Below, in pieces: positions 104-36,372 of a DNA stretch of 64,000 nt; the stretch's first letter is position 1, and each line of letters begins with the position of its first letter. Below the pieces are notes generated by a model. The model worked only from the letters and a program-made list of their open reading frames with translations. It made no database searches and had not been told where the DNA came from. The stretch lies in the IMG/VR virus record IMGVR_UViG_3300021426_000071, positions 1-64,000 of that record, one strand, 5' to 3'. The stretch comes from a virus. Lineage: Duplodnaviria > Caudoviricetes. The translations under genes were made by a program, and so were the position numbers.

Positions 104-182
104 TCGGAACGGCGGGACTCGAACCTGCATCGGGGCTTCCTCGGCCGCCATATTCCCCGCTCTACCATTGAGCTACGTTCCG
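104..182 (-). ncRNA. tRNA-like RNA with enlarged anticodon loop
   Basis: Acceptor CGGAACG/CGTTCCG, D-arm GCTC-AATGGTA-GAGC, T-arm GCAGG-TTCGAGT-CCCGC; GGGG/CCCC closes a 19-nt loop instead of 7 nt. Confidence 0.7.
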
Positions 183-186
183 ATAA

Positions 187-277
187 CTGAAGCGGTGTGA
201 TTTGAACACACATCTCTTTTGCGCTAAAGTGTTTTACCATAGGATTTATTTTTGGCACCTCATTAAACTACGCTTCA
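187..277 (-). ncRNA. tRNA-like RNA with expanded D-loop
   Basis: Acceptor TGAAGCG/CGCTTCA, T-arm GTGTG-TTCAAAT-CACAC, D-stem GTTT/AAAC enclosing an inserted hairpin, degenerate anticodon arm. Confidence 0.6.
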
Positions 278-280
278 ATA

Positions 281-335
281 ACTGGCGGCAGTCTTGGCCT
301 TCGACCGCACTTTAAGCGTTCATTAACGCACCAGT
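281..335 (-). ncRNA. small tRNA-like three-stem RNA
   Basis: 7-bp terminal stem ACTGGTG/CGCCAGT enclosing hairpins CGTT/AACG and GCGGTC/GACTGC; packed between other tRNA-like units. Confidence 0.4.
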
Positions 336-340
336 CTAAT

Positions 341-477
341 TATGCGGGTGAGGATTTACACCTCACAGACCAGAGCATTTCGGGCTGTTCGCTTCGCACA
401 TTTTCTAAGGCGTTGTCACGCAACGCTATGCCGCCTCTGGCTCCCCTTTAAGCGTTTACTTATTCCGCCACCGCATA
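341..477 (-). ncRNA. 137-nt tRNA-like RNA with large central insertion
   Basis: Acceptor TATGCGG/CCGCATA, Leu-type D-arm TGGCGGAATAAGTAAACGC, T-arm GTGAG-GTGTAAATC-CTCAC, central stem CCAGAG/CTCTGG. Confidence 0.65.
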
Positions 478-530
478 ACGTGGTCTTTCCTATTGTCAGA
501 CAAAGTTCTCCATTCTTGTACTGAATGGAA

Positions 531-602
531 CTGGGCTAGTTGGATTCGAACCAACGAATGCAGCAGTCAAAGTGCTGTGCCTTACCGCTTGGCGATAGCC
601 CA
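531..602 (-). tRNA. tRNA-Gln(TTG)
   Basis: Canonical cloverleaf TGGGCTATCGCCAAGCGGTAAGGCACAGCACTTTGACTGCTGCATTCGTTGGTTCGAATCCAACTAGCCCAG; CCA not encoded. Confidence 0.95.
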
Positions 603-710
603 AGAAAGGAGGGCGGCGCTTCGATCTTTCACTCCTACGTCGTCCGCAGTTAATATCAGGAGATGTCGAATTCCTGCGACCAAAATGACAAAACGATATT
701 TAACCGTATT

Positions 711-753
711 CTGGGTCTGGGAAGAGTCGAACTTCCAATACCCATCAGACCCA
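711..753 (-). ncRNA. tRNA minihelix-like RNA (acceptor plus T-arm only)
   Basis: TGGGTCTG-ATGGGTATT-GGAAG-TTCGACT-CTTCC-CAGACCCA. Confidence 0.6.
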
Positions 754-758
754 TGTTT

Positions 759-1057
759 TTGCTAATATTACAGCTCTCTATAAGCCAAACCCAAAAAGTA
801 TCCAACGGTATAGAATTTTTACGAGAGATTTTCTTATTCCGTACTGGTTACTCTTTAATGTCTAGTGCTTACTAAACTACTGTTTATTACTTATTGCCTA
901 CTGAGTAATGCTTACTAATTACTACTTAATCCATTTTCTTTCTATTAAATAGTCATCATTAGCATTGACGTTGCCGGAGTTCTTTATCTTTTCAACTCGG
1001 TCTACTTCCGGCTAAAGACAGAGCGGATACCTGTTATGGCTTTCGTAATATTAGCAA
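759..1057 (-). ncRNA. stem-closed ncRNA candidate with heptamer-repeat tract
   Basis: Perfect 13-bp terminal inverted repeat (759-771/1045-1057), nested stems AAGCCA/TGGCTT and AGGTATCCG/TGGATACTT, internal GCCGGA/TCCGGC hairpin, no credible ORF. Confidence 0.75.
830..928 (-). repeat. 14 tandem degenerate heptamers TANNNAN
   Basis: TAAGTAG TAATTAG TAAGCAT TACTCAG TAGGCAA TAAGTAA TAAACAG TAGTTTAG TAAGCAC TAGACAT TAAAGAG TAACCAG TACGGAA TAAGAAA. Confidence 0.9.
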
Positions 1058-1074
1058 TTCGTAAGATACAGCGA

Positions 1075-1112
1075 TTTGCTATAGGATGTAACCGTACCTC
1101 CCCTACAGCAAA
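1075..1112 (-). other. hairpin between the two ncRNA candidates
   Basis: TTTGCTGTAGG/CCTATAGCAAA, with a G-U pair only on the minus strand. Confidence 0.55.
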
Positions 1113-1119
1113 GGTTTTT

Positions 1120-1272
1120 AATAAGAGGTGCCCGACTCATTTGTTCTAGAATTAATAACGCCAAAAATGACATTAAACCTTATGCTCTGGAATCTATAAC
1201 AAATATAATAACTTATAACAAAAACGACGGATTTGATTTGCTTGTATATTTTTGAGCCTGACATCTCTTATT
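1120..1272 (-). ncRNA. second stem-closed ncRNA candidate with GTTAT repeats
   Basis: 20-nt terminal stem AATAAGAGATGTCAGGCTCA/TGAGTCGGGCACCTCTTATT (18/20 paired including G-U); begins 4 nt after the stop of 1277..1786. Confidence 0.65.
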
Positions 1273-1276
1273 CGGA

Positions 1277-1786
1277 TTACACCGCGATTTCGAACTTCAC
1301 GGTGGAATTAACCTTATCAAGTGCCAACTGAAGACCGCTCAGTCTTTCATAAGTCTCTTCGTAGAGCTTCTGAGCATCCTCGATCTCGTAATTCGTGTAT
1401 TCATAATCAATGGTTGAATTCTGCCCCGATCCATATGACCGTGTCCTTACGAACGGAGGTTTGCTAGCCATTGACTTATAGAGTTCTGCCCGCTCTCTCA
1501 GCTGAGGAAGAAGTACTAGAACTTCATCAATCGTAATACCGTCTTCTACCTCAGTAGTTGTATTAAAGACATTGATCGCGTGTTTCACAATTCTGATCTT
1601 CCGGCGAATCTGATTTAATTCGTCATAAGTCTCGAAGATCATATAGTGAGGACGAACATCCTCTTTATTTTCACAGGTTGCTGCCTTAAAAACAGAAGAG
1701 TATGATTCGTCTAAGACTATTCTGTTCTCTTCAACCTTAAGCTTATTGAGCAGCTTTACCGCCTCTGAAGATGTGTATAACGCCAT
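1277..1786 (-). CDS. coiled-coil protein, DIP1984/DUF6847-like (paralog B)
   Basis: GGAGG RBS; motifs EAVKLL..L, AINVFNTTT...TIDEVL, LQLALDKVNST. Confidence 0.7.
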   Translation of the reverse strand: MALYTSSEAVKLLNKLKVEENRIVLDESYSSVFKAATCENKEDVRPHYMIFETYDELNQIRRKIRIVKHAINVFNTTTEVEDGITIDEVLVLLPQLRERAELYKSMASKPPFVRTRSYGSGQNSTIDYEYTNYEIEDAQKLYEETYERLSGLQLALDKVNSTVKFEIAV

Positions 1787-1798
1787 GCTTTCCCTCCG

Positions 1799-2428
1799 TT
1801 AATACTCGATAGTTATATCATGTGTCGCATTTGCTATCTGGATCTGTGTATCTACACCAGACTCAAACTTTGAGATCCAGTCTTCCAGCTTCGCAATCTT
1901 GTCGCGAATATTAAGCGGATCAATAAGGATATACTGATTATCCTCTTTATACTGATTAAGGAAGTCGAGATAGCCGTCAGCCTTTGTGTCGCCCTCGAAT
2001 CTCTGCTTCGCATTACGCTCTGCGGCATCTTCGAGTTTATCGCCATTTTCGGATCTCATCCGACTCTCCGCCTCGTAAAGCTGTTGAGACAGTAGGTCGA
2101 GGAGTTGCTTCTTCTGGTGAATACCATGTTCTTTAATGTACAGCGCTGCCGCCACACTCATCTCCTCTCCGCAAATAGTGATCTTTGTCGAAGCGTTAAA
2201 TTCATTAATCGCCTTCTTCATCGCCAGATAACGGTCGAGAAGCTTTGTTGTAGAGTCATAACTCGATTTCGCCAAATTTGTAAAATCCTCGAGTTTCATT
2301 CCATCGACCTTTTTAGCCGACTGGCGATTCGCAGTAATAAGCTTCATCCCCCTCATCGCCTTAAAAAATCGATCTTCCTGAATCTTCAGCTGTCCGATTG
2401 CTTCGAGAACCTTCATAGTCTCGGTCAT
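1799..2428 (-). CDS. coiled-coil protein, DIP1984/DUF6847-like (paralog A)
   Basis: AGGAGG RBS; motifs VLEAIGQLK, AINEFNAST...SVAAAL, VDTQIQIANAT. Confidence 0.7.
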   Translation of the reverse strand: MTETMKVLEAIGQLKIQEDRFFKAMRGMKLITANRQSAKKVDGMKLEDFTNLAKSSYDSTTKLLDRYLAMKKAINEFNASTKITICGEEMSVAAALYIKEHGIHQKKQLLDLLSQQLYEAESRMRSENGDKLEDAAERNAKQRFEGDTKADGYLDFLNQYKEDNQYILIDPLNIRDKIAKLEDWISKFESGVDTQIQIANATHDITIEY

Positions 2429-2473
2429 ATCTCTCCTCCTTATTTTTTATTGCCCTGTTTTTGATCTAACGGT

Positions 2474-2502
2474 ATTATACTGCCCTTATTATGATTTGTC
2501 AA
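2474..2502 (-). promoter_or_regulatory. sigma-A promoter with AGGG box, driving the coiled-coil/ncRNA/tRNA unit
   Basis: TTGACA-AATCATAATAAGGGCAG-TATAAT. Confidence 0.85.
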
Positions 2503-3547: not shown

Positions 3548-5417
3548 AGAATCTCATCTTCGCCTCTTTAATTCTTGGGGCTGAGAATTTCGAAACTCTT
3601 TTCAGATACCCGATCACGCGTGTAGCATAGTCCACGTTTTCACTCCCGCATTTTTCACATCTATCTACATAATGTTTAGATATATGACCACAATCATTAC
3701 AAATTGTATTAGGAATATTGAAGGTAAAATATGTACAGCCAGTCTTAATTGCAAGTCTTAAAAGTTTTCTATATGTTTCATATGTCAGGTGCTCGGAAAG
3801 ATTACAATGAAGCGCACTTCCACCATCGAGATACTTTGTCAGTTTATTACCATGAAGAATAAATTTGTCCGGCACAGAACATGTCTCATCTTCTACTTTG
3901 TAAAAGTAACTATTATAACAATCTCTCGGAACGACATATCCATCCTTGCGATCCCACTTCGCATTTTTAACCCCCAAGTTTTCCGCTGGCACGAACTCGG
4001 TGTTAAACATCAATTCATCTGTTTTTGCGGCCTTGTTCTCCTCGTAAATAGGTTTAAGAATAGCCTCTCCGAACTCGAAATATGCATCATTAGGAGAAAT
4101 ATCGATGCCTAAAAATTCTGCCGCTTCCACAAATCCATTGATACCAATAGTTAAATATTGCTTTTCAAGTGAGATATATCCGGCATCATATACAGGCAGA
4201 AGTCCTGCTTTATAATTATCCTTCATAATCTCATTGAAGGCGATTTGATACTTATGAATCTTCTTAACCTGTTCACGTACCGCCTCGGAAATCTCTTCTT
4301 TTGATACCTCTTCCCTGTTTTTACAAACATTCTGTACCAATCTATTGAGATTAATGGTCATTACAGATTTAGAACCAGTACTAACGCCGCCAGCACCAAG
4401 CGTATAACTAAAAGTATTATCGGTAATGCCGTTCTTGAGCCGACAGCACGACGCCAACGAGTCTACAGAATCACTGGTATAAACGAAAAAGCTATGTCCT
4501 TCCGCATACATCTTTGCAGTAAACTCAAACCATTCCTGATCTACAAAATCTTTTCCGTCGTTGAGCAAATTCACGGTCTCTACTGGAAAAGTAAGAACGG
4601 ACTTCAGCCTTTCGCTATTAAACCATTTCATAAACCGTTTTTGCAGCCAACTAACACTCTCCCACTTTGGTGTTGTTCCGTCTGGAAAAACAAATCCATC
4701 GAATATACCATTGAAATAATTTCTGTCAAAATACGCGATGTTCCAGAAGACACTTTGACTATTCCTAGCTGCCGCTGGCTGGTTCATAGAGTAGACGACC
4801 TGTTCGAAATAATCTGTAATGATTTTATCTATCGTCTTTCCTCCATATCCCTCGGCCTTAAGCTTTTTGCCCGGATTATCTGTCCAGTAAACGACAGAAC
4901 ACACATTTTTATCTAAATAATAATTATCTCCGAATTCTTTTCGAATGAAATAATCGAGATATGTTAGGAATTCTGGTGTCGCAACTGCTCCGGCGAATTG
5001 AGCCGCCACAGCAAATACTAGGTTGATAAATGATCCACAAAATGACTGTAAATTAGTTGGTGCAGTTGAAACGCCTCCGATGTTGGCAAGTCCATTAAAA
5101 AGAAACGGGTACATCGTAATTGAAACACAGTACGGATAAAGACTTGTTTCGTCATGTTTATATATTTCATGAGCGTCGAGTTGTCTACTGTACTCGTTGG
5201 CCAGTTCTTCACCGAATAATTCCTTAATCTTATCTGTTAACATTAGTCGGTTGGTTCCGATAAACAAGCGCTTAGGAAGTTCTCCGGCCATCGTTGCTAC
5301 GTTTTTATTTTCAACATTGGCATTGGCATCAACTTCTGAGCCAGTCGCAGCATTTAATGCTGCTCTATATTTATTAATAAAGTTTGCTTGTGTCCTATAA
5401 CCCTCGTAGTTCGGCAT
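3540..5417 (-). CDS. nrdD: class III anaerobic ribonucleoside-triphosphate reductase
   Basis: IYKHD, PYCVS, TFPV, ASCCRL, C-terminal CxxC..CxxC and glycyl-radical TRVIGYL; no ATP cone. Confidence 0.96.
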   Translation of the reverse strand: MPNYEGYRTQANFINKYRAALNAATGSEVDANANVENKNVATMAGELPKRLFIGTNRLMLTDKIKELFGEELANEYSRQLDAHEIYKHDETSLYPYCVSITMYPFLFNGLANIGGVSTAPTNLQSFCGSFINLVFAVAAQFAGAVATPEFLTYLDYFIRKEFGDNYYLDKNVCSVVYWTDNPGKKLKAEGYGGKTIDKIITDYFEQVVYSMNQPAAARNSQSVFWNIAYFDRNYFNGIFDGFVFPDGTTPKWESVSWLQKRFMKWFNSERLKSVLTFPVETVNLLNDGKDFVDQEWFEFTAKMYAEGHSFFVYTSDSVDSLASCCRLKNGITDNTFSYTLGAGGVSTGSKSVMTINLNRLVQNVCKNREEVSKEEISEAVREQVKKIHKYQIAFNEIMKDNYKAGLLPVYDAGYISLEKQYLTIGINGFVEAAEFLGIDISPNDAYFEFGEAILKPIYEENKAAKTDELMFNTEFVPAENLGVKNAKWDRKDGYVVPRDCYNSYFYKVEDETCSVPDKFILHGNKLTKYLDGGSALHCNLSEHLTYETYRKLLRLAIKTGCTYFTFNIPNTICNDCGHISKHYVDRCEKCGSENVDYATRVIGYLKRVSKFSAPRIKEAKMRFYA

Positions 5418-5421
5418 CCTC

Positions 5422-5622
5422 TCACCTCTCGTTAACCCAGATCATTGCCTGTTGACAATTCTTAATCTTGCCATCAACCTCGAGCATCGGAACCGTCGCA
5501 AACCCTTTTCTAATCATCTCTTTTGTGTCGGTTACCACATCATATTCAATATTCTTTTCATCAAGCTTCTGCTTTAACACCCTACACTGTGGACACCCAG
5601 TTGTGTATAGCACAACTTTCAA
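5422..5622 (-). CDS. NrdH/glutaredoxin-like protein
   Basis: YTTGCPQC, TVPML. Confidence 0.85.
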   Translation of the reverse strand: MKVVLYTTGCPQCRVLKQKLDEKNIEYDVVTDTKEMIRKGFATVPMLEVDGKIKNCQQAMIWVNER

Positions 5623-5805
5623 TTAAACCAACTCCTTTCGTATGTCTTCGCAATACATAAGCGCTCTTTCGATCCACGCATCCTTCGTCAAATTAAAAAG
5701 CTCTTTGAGTACATCGATTGCATTTTCTGTATCATATAAGGTGCGATTTGTGTCTACCCTATAATAATCCATGATCGCCTCGGCGATTTCATACCCATAG
5801 TCCAT
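5623..5805 (-). CDS. hypothetical protein
   Basis: 60-aa ORF abutting the glutaredoxin gene. Confidence 0.55.
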   Translation of the reverse strand: MDYGYEIAEAIMDYYRVDTNRTLYDTENAIDVLKELFNLTKDAWIERALMYCEDIRKELV

Positions 5806-34751: not shown

Positions 34752-35312
34752 TTAATATGTGCAACCTTTAGGATAGAACTCATTCTGTCTCCAGAAGTTG
34801 GACTCGTTTGCCTTGGAAGGATAGAAACACTTTAAGCAGTCATGCGGGCATTCCATCCCAGCCATGATGATTTCCTCAAAAGGAGCGTCTGGATCTAAGA
34901 CGCCAGCGCCGATCCGCTCATCTCCCTTAAACAGCTGATAGAAGAGACCTTCATAGTCTGCGAGCAGCATTCGTAAATCCAACCATGTTTCAACCATCAT
35001 TTCTTTTACGAGCGTTCCGTCTTCTGGATAATTTGCGTAATGTGTCAGATCATCATCTTTCTCTGCTGTAATCACAATTCTGTACTTCATATCCCTTAAT
35101 AACCTCCGCGCCCAATCTACACGATCCGGCAAATCGTTTCCGCAGTATTTAATCTCTTCCTTTAGTGTGTCTGAGATCGCATCATAGTCTCCCTTGAGCA
35201 ACGCATCTTCAATATCGCGAATATAGAAGTGTCTTGCGTCATCTGGCGGCTCGACCATATCTAAATCTGTCATAAACTCAAACATCTCTTCCGCGAATTT
35301 TCGTATGTCCAT
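34752..35312 (-). CDS. hypothetical protein
   Basis: 186-aa ORF with GAGG RBS. Confidence 0.65.
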   Translation of the reverse strand: MDIRKFAEEMFEFMTDLDMVEPPDDARHFYIRDIEDALLKGDYDAISDTLKEEIKYCGNDLPDRVDWARRLLRDMKYRIVITAEKDDDLTHYANYPEDGTLVKEMMVETWLDLRMLLADYEGLFYQLFKGDERIGAGVLDPDAPFEEIIMAGMECPHDCLKCFYPSKANESNFWRQNEFYPKGCTY

Positions 35313-35321
35313 TGCGTTACC

Positions 35322-36372
35322 TCACAGTTTGTAAACATGAACTCCGTCCTTGGTCGCTTCACAGAAGCAGCCCATCTCAACGAGTCGGGTGATAATTGCG
35401 GGCGGGCATTCCTTAATCACAATTCCCTTAACGCATGTCGTTCCCTGAAGTCTCCCGAACTGAAGCGTTACAGGTGATGTGTTCTTCGAAGTCTCATAGA
35501 TAACCTTGACAATGTCGAATTCGTTCATTTCGCTTACTCCTTTTCAGTCGTATATAACCTGATTTCCATCCTCATCTTCAATAAAGAACAGTTCTGCATC
35601 ATGTCCTTCCGCTTCCCATTTCTTCTGTGCTTCGTCAACCGAAGCCGCATCGATCCACTCCTCTTCCACAACTGTACGGATATACACAACTCTATATGTC
35701 CCCATTTCGCTTACTCCTTTCACATATCAACCGTGATCGTCCCCTCGACTCCATCGCAATGCGTCTGTAAATAATCAGCGATCATCTTCGCACAACAGTT
35801 ACTCCATTTCTGTTTTGTCCGTGATATCCGACAGTGTTTTTTATAATCCCAATACTTCAATTCTTCGGCGCAGAAATCGCCGATCCTGTCATCATATTCG
35901 TTTATGTGATACAGTACCGCCTCGGCCTCTCCGCCATAACGGCTTACAATGTACATCGGATTATCATTGTCGAATTCGTCGATTCTCTTAACGCCACACC
36001 AGTCGTAACACTCATCTTCCGTTCCACAGGCGAAGTCAATAACCTCACCCACCTTCATATCATTTACAAGCGTTGCAAGATCGATCAGTTTCATTTCCCT
36101 CATATATTCTCCTCTCAGTGATCTGTACCATGACCGCAGATAATCAGTTCATCGTTTTTCTTTCGCCGGATCTCCATTCGAAGAGGATCAGAGGGATCAT
36201 GCCACGTTCCGTAGAAAACGCACTCCTCAAGATAGTGGTCGGGATCGAGATCCCAGATCCCTTCCAGATAGAGTTCGTAACAATCAGCCATATCCATCTT
36301 GTCGAAGATCTGTATCGGTTTCTCTATTGCCGAATAAATTTCGCCTTCCATCTCATACTTAACAAGAAACAT
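35322..36372 (-). other. four small CDS (35322-35528, about 35544-35705, 35720-36103, 36115-36372)
   Basis: Packed ORFs; two share the identical leader AAAGGAGTAAGCGAAATG. Confidence 0.6.

What the first reader, a model, noticed from the sequence alone, without database searches (positions are those of the whole stretch)
759..2502. Candidate undescribed ribonucleoprotein system: two coiled-coil paralogs followed by two stem-closed ncRNAs
Seen: one consensus promoter (2474-2502) precedes two distantly paralogous helical proteins. These are followed immediately by two ORF-free segments, each closed by a long terminal stem (1120-1272 and 759-1057; G-U pairs favour the minus strand) and each with an A/U-rich repetitive interior. 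A hairpin separates them and they run into the tRNA array. Recalled: the protein motifs resemble the uncharacterised DIP1984/DUF6847 family. Inference: each protein binds a cognate RNA, giving two protein-RNA pairs. Possible roles are an oligomer or filament templated by the repeat tract, a type III toxin-antitoxin-like module, or an anti-defence RNP.
Basis: partly seen in the sequence, partly recalled or inferred. Interest (0 to 1): 0.92.

Follow-up and report, generated by a model that had tools for sequence, protein, structure and literature searches.

The report
Two nested phage protein–heptad-RNA modules
This phage carries, side by side, two related small helical-protein genes, each with its own conserved, knotted non-coding RNA displaying a row of evenly spaced 7-base units; the same gene-plus-RNA pairs recur in hundreds of phages (including model phage T5) and prophages, so they probably form undescribed protein-RNA particles whose job is unknown.

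Summary
One 12/12 consensus promoter drives two DIP1984-fold paralogs (P2 2428-1799, P1 1786-1277, minus strand), followed by two ORF-free structured RNAs and a tRNA-like array.

Comparative data split the locus into two gene-RNA modules. About 95 P1 homolog loci carry RNA-A directly after the stop codon. It has a covarying closing stem, about seven GUU units spaced 6-7 nt, AAAAACUU, and a hairpin with the loop GAAGUWCGGUU and a covarying pseudoknot. About 55 P2 homolog loci carry RNA-B. It has a closing stem, YGAAAAC, 2x7 phased heptamers, AAAAUC, a stem, and CUG. P2 homologs occur in 746 phage records; RNA-B was checked in T5, pVp-1, phiCD211 and Jenst.

The first 86 nt of RNA-B are the orphan Rfam motif RAGATH-27. 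The rest of RNA-B, and all of RNA-A, match nothing in Rfam.

Syntenic relatives have P2 followed directly by RNA-B. The window therefore holds a P1+RNA-A cassette nested inside a P2+RNA-B module.

The "separating hairpin" is really the conserved 3' domain of RNA-A.

Protein-RNA binding, stoichiometry and function are inferred, not shown. This scan already noted the same gene-RNA pair in at least 8 other genomes; I found no publication describing it.

The parts
2474..2502 (-). Consensus sigma-70-type promoter (TTGACA, 17 nt, TATAAT) for the whole operon
   Evidence: 12/12 match. No terminator-like site follows on the minus strand until about 530.
1799..2428 (-). P2: 209-aa DIP1984-fold helical protein (phrog_1491; the database label 'tail fiber protein' is probably wrong). 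Partner gene of RNA-B.
   Evidence: phrog_1491 E 1.2e-37. AF2 pLDDT 92.9, best PDB match 3KDQ. Homodimer ipSAE 0.60 vs best control 0.00. Homologs in 96 phage records directly and 746 through pVp-1.
1277..1786 (-). P1: 169-aa DIP1984/DUF6847-like protein. Partner gene of RNA-A.
   Evidence: PF20935 25.4 bits (cut-off 27); NF038048 28.1 bits (cut-off 70). AF2 pLDDT 95; 3KDQ at Z 13.2 over 151 of 152 residues. 1140 cluster representatives at E<=1e-3.
1078..1276 (-). RNA-A, about 200 nt. UCCG directly after the stop codon; closing stem 1272-1253 with 1139-1120; GUU/GUUAU tract 1151-1229; AAAAACCUU 1111-1119; hairpin 1078-1109 with conserved loop GGAGGUACGGUUACA (1087-1101), whose AGGU pairs with ACCU of AAAAACCUU (pseudoknot).
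   Evidence: Same plan in about 78-90 of about 96 P1 loci. Hairpin: 9 of 9 pairs covary; pseudoknot pair UA:40 CG:3 UG:1. Closing stem: cognate -20.4 vs non-cognate -13.5 kcal/mol, p 6e-19. CM R2, built without the window, hits 1073-1122(-) at 35.7 bits, E 4.7e-5. Lag-6/7 periodicity z 12.6/14.8 over 69 loci.
759..1057 (-). RNA-B, about 300 nt. Closing stem 1057-1045 with 771-759; CGAAAGCC 1038-1045 (pseudoknot partner GGCUU at about 780-786); RAGATH-27-like 5' domain 973-1057; heptamer array 828-933 (about 15 NNNARUA units in two halves with a 1-nt phase slip); GAAAAUC anchor at about 823-833; stem UCUC/GAGAG, then CUG 771-778.
   Evidence: Fold z -3.65. Top lag-7 window of the genome. RF03100 25.6 bits, E 1.4 at the homologous position, with relatives up to 77.2 bits. 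CM R1, built without the window, has its best hit at 751-848(-), 20.2 bits, E 0.056. Alignment with L107, L160 and L161 shows compensatory changes. Family-wide cognate stem tests.
713..752 (-). tRNA-like minihelix (7-bp acceptor stem plus T-arm GGAAG-UUCGACU-CUUCC), 6 nt after the 3' end of RNA-B. Likely a processing signal.
   Evidence: Read directly from the sequence. In 27 of 39 unique P2 loci a same-strand tRNA starts within 60 nt of the RNA-B 3' end.
104..603 (-). Downstream tRNA and tRNA-like array, co-oriented with the operon. It continues across the contig junction to genome positions about 127704-128284.
   Evidence: tRNA-Gln 530-603; tRNA with a 19-nt anticodon loop 104-182. ARAGORN on the whole contig.

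Best explanation
The locus holds two copies of one kind of phage gene-RNA module, one nested inside the other.

Each module has two parts. The first is a small DIP1984-fold helical protein, which probably forms a symmetric dimer. The second is a pseudoknotted non-coding RNA, co-transcribed just downstream, that displays phased units about 7 nt long between a long closing stem and a conserved A-rich/pseudoknot core. RNA-A has about 7 GUU(AU) units and belongs with P1. RNA-B has 2x7 NNNARUA units and belongs with P2.

In this phage the P1+RNA-A cassette sits between P2 and its RNA-B. Everything is read from one consensus promoter into a tRNA-like array.

Shown here:
- Both RNAs are real, conserved, covarying structures on the gene strand.
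- Each RNA type co-occurs with its own protein family.
- The unit period and number are conserved while the unit sequence changes between protein lineages.

Inferred:
- Several protein copies bind the phased units, roughly one protomer per unit. For RNA-B this might be seven dimers bridging the two half-arrays.
- The result would be a particle of defined size.
- The RNA would be freed from the operon transcript by tRNA-processing enzymes (RNase P at the adjoining tRNA or minihelix) or, in prophage versions of RNA-A, by a terminator-like 3' hairpin.

The cellular role is unknown. Candidates are handling of phage or host RNA and tRNA, or counter-defence.
For: RNA-A with P1:
- The motif set (GUUAU repeats, AAAAC(U/C)U, loop GAAGUWCGGUU) lies directly after the stop codon in 78 of about 96 loci by a strict regex, and in more by CM.
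- In the hairpin, 9 of 9 pairs covary. Covariation score 0.527 vs 0.201 in shuffles (0/500 reach it); slid controls score 0.07-0.14.
- Pseudoknot switch: every AAAACC locus has a GAGGU loop, and every AAAACU locus has GAAGU.
- Closing stem: cognate arms beat non-cognate arms, p 6e-19.
- GUU spacing has its mode at 7; mean 7.4 units per RNA.

RNA-B with P2:
- All lineages share the plan, with a constant array of about 98 nt and a constant 57-60 nt distance from AAAAUC to CUG.
- The stem after AAAAUC is paired in 17 of 17 sequences, with 3 covarying positions.
- Closing stem: -14.5 vs -5.4 kcal/mol, p 3e-8; the gene strand is favoured, p 6e-4.
- Pseudoknot: cognate -5.9 vs non-cognate -3.0 kcal/mol, p 2e-8.
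- The unit motif differs by protein clade: AAAG, UAUU/UAAU, AGUA, GUUACU.

Nesting: relatives L160 and L161 (NrdD-NrdG-dUTPase-P2) have RNA-B directly after P2 and no P1.

Proteins: both models point to the 3KDQ fold. For the P2 homodimer, ipSAE is 0.60 against a best control of 0.00. That mark was reached by 20 of 30 proteins solved as pairs and 1 of 23 solved as single chains. Runs agree in at least 96% of contacts and the partner pLDDT is at least 88. The pass could reflect likeness to the multi-chain 3KDQ entry.

Transcription and processing: one promoter and no internal terminator. A tRNA lies within 60 nt of the RNA-B 3' end in 27 of 39 loci.
Against: - There is no direct evidence that either protein binds RNA. 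The fold has no known function and no recognised RNA-binding motif.
- The link between unit motif and protein clade could be plain co-inheritance of linked DNA.
- Each CM or Rfam hit on the window's own RNA-B is marginal on its own: 25.6 bits with E 1.4, and 20.2 bits with E 0.056.
- The window's RNA-A shows only a weak lag-7 signal by itself (0.44).
- The stoichiometry (7 or 14) is read from unit counts alone.
Confidence: 0.6

Rival explanations
1. The RNAs act only in cis. They would be 3'-UTR or operon-leader structures that stabilise the upstream mRNA, direct processing, or promote read-through into the tRNA array. The neighbouring proteins would not bind them.
For: The RNAs start 4-15 nt after the stop codon with no promoter of their own. 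RNA-B usually heads a tRNA array. Some RNA-A hairpins are followed by U-tracts, like terminators.
Against: RNA-A rarely has tRNAs nearby (5 of 87 loci), yet it is as conserved as RNA-B. In the window RNA-B is separated from P2 by about 700 nt and is still retained. Fourteen phased units, whose sequence turns over while their phase and number are kept, are hard to explain without a repeated ligand. Each RNA type tracks one protein family rather than the downstream genes.
Confidence: 0.15
2. The phased units bind a host factor, such as an abundant RNA-binding protein or an RNase, so the RNA works as a sponge or decoy. The phage protein would be a helper or unrelated.
For: Repeat-bearing sponge RNAs are an established principle (CsrB/RsmZ; general knowledge). 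Nothing here excludes a host ligand.
Against: Unit motifs differ strongly (AAAG, UAUU, AGUA) among gut-metagenome viral contigs whose hosts were not determined, and they follow the clade of the linked protein. A conserved host target should keep the motif constant. The tight protein-RNA linkage over more than 150 loci would also go unexplained.
Confidence: 0.12
3. Each pair is a type III toxin-antitoxin-like module: a repeat RNA neutralises a toxic protein.
For: A protein gene is linked to an RNA with tandem units. The pair is mobile as a cassette, as the nesting shows.
Against: Known type III systems place 34-36-nt repeats upstream of an endoribonuclease toxin, with a terminator in between (general knowledge of ToxIN). 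Here the units are 7 nt and lie downstream inside one large knotted fold. The proteins have a helical DIP1984 fold. Neither protein gave a relevant PADLOC match; the only hit was a weak Type II methyltransferase model for P1 (E 0.0041).
Confidence: 0.05
4. The repeats and inverted repeats act as double-stranded DNA, for example as iterons, a centromere or an origin bound by the helical proteins.
For: The tracts are AT-rich and repetitive, next to genes for small dimeric helical proteins. Some carriers are plasmid-like prophages (phiCD211, D-1873).
Against: G-U pairs make the stems strand-specific. Pseudoknots covary. A 7-bp period does not match the DNA helical repeat. The element is always co-oriented with the gene and abuts tRNAs.
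Confidence: 0.03

Closest known systems
RAGATH-27 RNA motif (Rfam RF03100; orphan candidate sRNA, function unknown)
   Same: It corresponds to the first ~86 nt of the RNA-B family: the 5' strand of the closing stem, YCGAAAAC, and the first hairpin. Relatives score 65.7-77.2 bits. The window matches at the homologous position and orientation.
   Different: The Rfam model treats its first 46 nt as unpaired and stops before the heptamer array, the AAAAUC/CUG domain, the closing stem and the pseudoknot. It records no protein partner. The window copy scores only 25.6 bits against a gathering score of 76.1. RNA-A matches no Rfam family, even at E<=10.
DIP1984 family / Pfam DUF6847 (NF038048, PF20935; crystal structure 3KDQ, function unknown)
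   Same: Both P1 and P2 models have 3KDQ as their best structural match. For P1, Z is 13.2 over 151 of 152 residues. P1 also hits both sequence profiles.
   Different: P1 falls below both curated cut-offs and P2 hits neither. No RNA partner or function has been reported for the family; the full-text search returned one paper, with a single occurrence of 'DIP1984', which I did not read.
TRAP and the Bacillus trp leader (11 (G/U)AG triplets wrapped round an 11-subunit ring); HutP (UAG-N4 repeats)
   Same: In both, a single-stranded RNA tract carries a fixed number of short motifs at constant spacing, and the known cases are read by an oligomer with one motif per subunit (general knowledge).
   Different: Here the fold is helical, the units are 7 nt, and there are 7 or 2x7 of them. 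The tract sits inside a large closed, knotted RNA downstream of the gene, not in a 5' leader. Binding is not shown.
RAGATH-18-derived reRNA with IS607 TnpB (PMC11061315)
   Same: This is a precedent: an orphan RAGATH motif lying just downstream of a protein gene proved to be that protein's partner RNA (abstract seen).
   Different: That pair is an RNA-guided nuclease with a guide segment. Nothing here suggests a guide or a nuclease.
Type III toxin-antitoxin systems (ToxIN)
   Same: A protein gene is linked to an RNA with tandem units.
   Different: Gene order, unit length, the lack of a nuclease fold, and the single large fold all differ (see membership test).

Membership tests
RAGATH-27 (RF03100) | Score at or above the Rfam gathering threshold (76.1 bits) | tested here: not met
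   Window 973-1057(-) scores 25.6 bits, E 1.4. Relatives: L102 77.2 bits (met); L112 70.9, L109 68.0 and L110 65.7.
RAGATH-27 (RF03100) | Same position and orientation within a homologous larger RNA, directly 3' of a phrog_1491 gene | tested here: met
   The hit starts at the 5' strand of the RNA-B closing stem, as in L102 and L109. The 3' domain model R1 has its best hit at 751-848(-). RNA-B aligns with that of close relatives L107, L160 and L161.
DUF6847 / DIP1984 (PF20935, NF038048) | Sequence score above the curated cut-off | tested here: not met
   P1: PF20935 25.4 bits against 27; NF038048 28.1 bits against 70. P2: no hit.
DUF6847 / DIP1984 (PF20935, NF038048) | Fold of the solved member 3KDQ | tested here: met
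   P1: Foldseek E 1.1e-4; VIA-align Z 13.2, 151 residues aligned, rmsd 5.6, and the next hit scores Z 8.5. P2: 3KDQ is the top match at E 2.3e-3.
Gene-plus-heptad-RNA module (this scan's provisional class) | Closed, pseudoknotted RNA with phased ~7-nt units directly downstream of, and co-oriented with, a DIP1984-fold gene | tested here: met
   Both modules meet it.
Gene-plus-heptad-RNA module (this scan's provisional class) | The protein physically binds the RNA units | not testable with these tools
   The complex predictor takes no RNA, and no expression or binding data were available.
Type III toxin-antitoxin | Repeat RNA upstream of an endoribonuclease toxin gene, with units of about 34-36 nt | tested here: not met
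   The RNA lies downstream, the units are 7 nt, and the fold is a helical DIP1984 fold. Neither protein matched a toxin-antitoxin model in PADLOC; P1's only hit was a weak Type II methyltransferase model, E 0.0041.
TRAP-type attenuation protein with phased triplets | Beta-sandwich ring protein acting on a 5' leader | tested here: not met
   The models are helical. The RNA is 3' of the gene.

The most novel reading that the evidence does not exclude
These modules could be a new class of RNA-templated protein assemblies. A knotted scaffold RNA would present exactly 7 (RNA-A) or 2x7 (RNA-B) phased sites, each read by one protomer of a DIP1984-fold dimer. The result would be a particle of fixed size that phages from T5 to gut Clostridia phages make alongside their tRNAs. 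Its job might be to act on tRNA or RNA metabolism, or to counter host RNA-targeting defences. The motif code would co-evolve with the protein, which would let two orthogonal modules coexist in one operon, as seen here.
Probability: 0.4. Interest if true: 0.9.

Novelty: categorically new. Interest (0 to 1): 0.82.

Why it matters
If the proteins do assemble on these RNAs, this would be a widespread ribonucleoprotein that has gone unrecognised. P2 relatives occur in 746 deposited phage genomes, including T5, Bf23 and many Salmonella, Vibrio, Bacillus, Lactococcus and Clostridioides phages. The P1 family has at least 1140 sequence clusters.

It would give a function-bearing partner to three orphans: a structural-genomics fold (3KDQ), a Pfam DUF, and an Rfam motif (RAGATH-27).

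It would explain long 'empty' regions beside phage tRNA arrays.

It would correct a propagated 'tail fiber protein' annotation.

The window is especially informative because two orthogonal versions sit nested in one operon. That argues for cassette mobility and for pair-specific recognition. Because T5 carries the module, the idea can be tested directly.

Tried and rejected
- The search for related loci with the single P2 protein found nothing; the family alignment was needed.
The profile search lists only the best 150 of 1140 hits, so distant members could not be fetched.
- R1 with default filters missed the window's RNA-B. It was found only with filters off.
- Tandem Repeats Finder reports nothing in 600-1400, because the units share only 3-4 of 7 bases.
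- Rfam at E<=10 gives only chance-level hits on RNA-A.
- No RtcB gene lies in this genome, so the RtcB association noted elsewhere does not apply here.
- No supplement text is held for the paper that described skipping-rope and other motifs.
- 'RAGATH-27', 'DUF6847' and 'DIP1984' returned no functional literature.
- I considered and rejected alternative genetic codes or hidden ORFs in 759-1272. Only short ORFs appear there under table 11 (other codes were not run), and the sequence constraints are on base pairs and phase, not on codons.
Full report
**Context.** The window is the first 64 kb of a 129,022-nt viral contig whose ends overlap by about 133 nt. The neighbouring genes on the minus strand are phage-typical: dUTPase, NrdG, NrdD and glutaredoxin. 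A perfect TTGACA-17-TATAAT promoter at 2502-2474(-) precedes P2 (2428-1799) and P1 (1786-1277). Downstream lie about 520 nt without credible ORFs, then a tRNA/tRNA-like array that runs over the contig junction. No terminator-like site lies on that strand before about 530.

**The proteins.**
- P1 hits DUF6847 (25.4 bits, cut-off 27) and NCBIfam DIP1984_fam (28.1 bits, cut-off 70).
- P2 hits phrog_1491 (E 1e-37, labelled 'tail fiber') and no Pfam family.
- The AF2 models are confident (pLDDT 95.0 and 92.9). Both have terminal beta-strands and long helical hairpins.
- For both, the only meaningful PDB match is 3KDQ, the function-unknown DIP1984 structure. For P1, VIA-align gives Z 13.2 over 151 residues, with the next hit at Z 8.5.
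- Profile-profile comparison of the two family alignments gives 79% probability, E 1.6e-5, over the shared K(H/K)AINxFN..T region. One P2-family member carries a precomputed PF20935 hit.
- A P2 homodimer is supported by the complex predictor. ipSAE is 0.60 against a best control of 0.00. That mark was reached by 20 of 30 proteins solved as pairs and 1 of 23 solved as singles. Contact agreement is at least 96% and partner pLDDT at least 88. The pass could be memory of the multi-chain 3KDQ entry.

**RNA-A goes with P1.** I collected about 99 loci with P1 homologs (32-54% identity) from IMG/VR, metagenomes and Clostridia genomes, the last probably prophages. Almost all share one plan directly after the stop codon:
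- UUUUCCG, then the 5' strand of a closing stem;
- a tract with GUUCAA and GUUAU units, then the 3' strand of the closing stem;
- AAAAAC(U/C)U;
- a hairpin whose loop is GAAGUWCGGUUWYA.

The structural evidence is as follows.
- On a 44-sequence alignment, all 9 hairpin pairs show compensatory changes. The covariation score is 0.527 against 0.201 in shuffles (0 of 500 reach it), and 0.07-0.14 when the partners are slid.
- The loop's A(A/G)GU pairs with AC(U/C)U of the A-rich motif. Every AAAACC locus, including the window, has GAGGU; every AAAACU locus has GAAGU (UA:40, CG:3, UG:1, none unpaired).
- Closing-stem arms pair far better with their own partner than with arms from other loci (-20.4 vs -13.5 kcal/mol, p 6e-19).
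- Over 69 distinct interiors, identity at lags 6 and 7 is 12.6 and 14.8 sd above shuffles. Successive GUU triplets are most often 7 nt apart, with a mean of 7.4 GUU per RNA.
- A covariance model of the 3' domain, built without the window, finds window 1073-1122(-) at 35.7 bits, E 4.7e-5. It finds nothing in the 13 P2-family loci scanned.

No Rfam family matches it.

**RNA-B goes with P2.** P2 homologs occur in 96 phage records directly and 746 when bridged through the Vibrio phage pVp-1 homolog. These include T5, Bf23, many Salmonella T5-like phages, and Bacillus, Lactococcus, Erwinia and Clostridioides phages. In phiCD211, pVp-1, Dulem virus 39, Jenst, 55 IMG/VR contigs and T5, the gene is followed by 370-800 nt of ORF-poor DNA with one plan:
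- the 5' strand of a closing stem, then YGAAAAC;
- a variable region;
- about 98 nt of phased heptamers in two halves, separated by one extra base or, in L146 and L151, by an inserted hairpin;
- (U)AUAAAAUC, then a stem spanning a constant 57-60 nt;
- CUG, then the 3' strand of the closing stem.

The structural evidence is as follows.
- The stem after AAAAUC is paired in 17 of 17 sequences, with three covarying positions.
- Closing stems: cognate -14.5 vs non-cognate -5.4 kcal/mol (p 3e-8). The same arms on the opposite strand give -9.8 (p 6e-4), which shows G-U pairs on the gene strand.
- The 5' GAAAAC-NNN segment pairs with a segment inside that stem's loop, forming a pseudoknot: cognate -5.9 vs -3.0 kcal/mol, p 2e-8, with visibly compensating sequences.
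- The heptamer motif differs between protein clades: YUAAAG, UAUU/UAAU, AGUA, GUUACU. Period, number and flanks stay the same.

The 5' 86 nt of this RNA are Rfam RAGATH-27. L102 scores 77.2 bits (gathering score 76.1), and L112, L109 and L110 score 65.7-70.9.

The window's RNA-B scores only 25.6 bits there and 20.2 bits, E 0.056, with my 3' domain model (best hit in 20 kb, full length). However, it aligns along its whole length with the RNAs of close relatives L107, L160 and L161, with compensatory changes in the closing stem and inner long-range helices. Its heptamer tract (828-933) is the top lag-7 window of the entire genome.

**Nesting.** L160 and L161 are syntenic relatives (NrdD-NrdG-dUTPase-P2, with P2 56-63% identical). 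In them, RNA-B begins about 15 nt after the P2 stop, and there is no P1 homolog. Conversely, none of the P1 loci has a P2 homolog next to it, and no P2 locus has P1. The window's order P2-[P1-RNA-A]-RNA-B is therefore best read as a P1+RNA-A cassette inserted between P2 and its RNA. This argues that each gene-RNA pair is a unit.

**Processing (inferred).** In 27 of 39 distinct P2 loci a same-strand tRNA starts within 60 nt of the RNA-B 3' end, several within 1-12 nt. In the window a tRNA-like acceptor/T-arm minihelix (713-752) starts 6 nt after it. RNase P cleavage would then define the RNA's 3' end. Many prophage RNA-A hairpins are followed by U-tracts.

**Mechanism.** A fixed number of short motifs at a fixed spacing, preserved while the motif itself turns over with the linked protein, is what one expects of a tract read repeatedly by an oligomerising partner. 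The co-inherited, probably dimeric DIP1984-fold protein is the obvious candidate. Two half-arrays of seven units, sometimes separated by a hairpin, could fold back antiparallel and be bridged by symmetric dimers.

The rivals are cis-acting RNA, a host-factor sponge, a type III TA-like module, and a DNA element. I weigh them in the Rival explanations section. Each explains the module-specific linkage, strand-specific pairing or motif turnover less well.

**Novelty.** Full-text searches for DUF6847, DIP1984 and RAGATH-27 gave no functional study. The only catalogued piece is the 86-nt orphan motif.

This scan has independently flagged the same kind of pair in at least eight other genomes. I reached the RAGATH-27 link and the pairing before reading those notes. 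I then checked their T5 claim myself and it holds. Their RtcB association does not apply to this genome.

What this window adds is the tandem, nested occurrence of two orthogonal modules, and a well-sampled description of the RNA-A type.

Noticed in passing
window 104-477 and 713-752 (minus strand); L160 about 3720-4110: Several tRNA-like units depart from canonical tRNA: a 19-nt anticodon loop, long inserts in the D/anticodon region, and an acceptor/T-arm minihelix. ARAGORN and Rfam do not call most of them. At least two of the odd units are conserved, nearly base for base, in the syntenic relative L160, so they are not decay products.
   Followed up: partly
L103 (Brevibacillus phage Jenst) 3134-3211: A skipping-rope RNA (RF02924, 67.6 bits) lies directly after the P2-homolog stop codon, in the place where other phages have the RAGATH-27 domain. 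The heptamer array follows about 150 nt further on. Skipping-rope may be an alternative 5' domain of the same large RNA.
   Followed up: no
L162 (phage T5, AY692264) 1501-2130 of the locus = record 35303-35929 complement: In this T5 record the P2 homolog is not annotated. An opposite-strand ORF (T5p083) is annotated across it. The ~390 nt downstream hold the closing stem, CGAAAGCC, NNNAAAG repeats and the AAACC...CUG domain.
   Followed up: partly
window 1799-2428 and phage records: The phrog_1491 family is widely labelled 'tail fiber protein'. Its 3KDQ-like helical fold, early/tRNA-region location and RNA linkage make that label very unlikely.
   Followed up: partly
genome contig ends (1-133 and 128890-129022): The contig's first ~133 nt recur at its end, either as a circular assembly or a short terminal repeat. 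IMG/VR nevertheless classes it as linear and 72% complete. The tRNA array continues across this junction.
   Followed up: partly
genome 123961-124974 (outside the window): ARAGORN in intron mode proposes a tRNA-Ala with a 928-nt intron. This is possibly a false call or an intron/HEG-bearing tRNA.
   Followed up: no
L102 (Dulem virus 39) 5574-5633: An RtcB RNA-ligase gene lies about 2.4 kb downstream of that phage's P2+RNA-B module and tRNA array. No RtcB is present in the window's own genome.
   Followed up: partly
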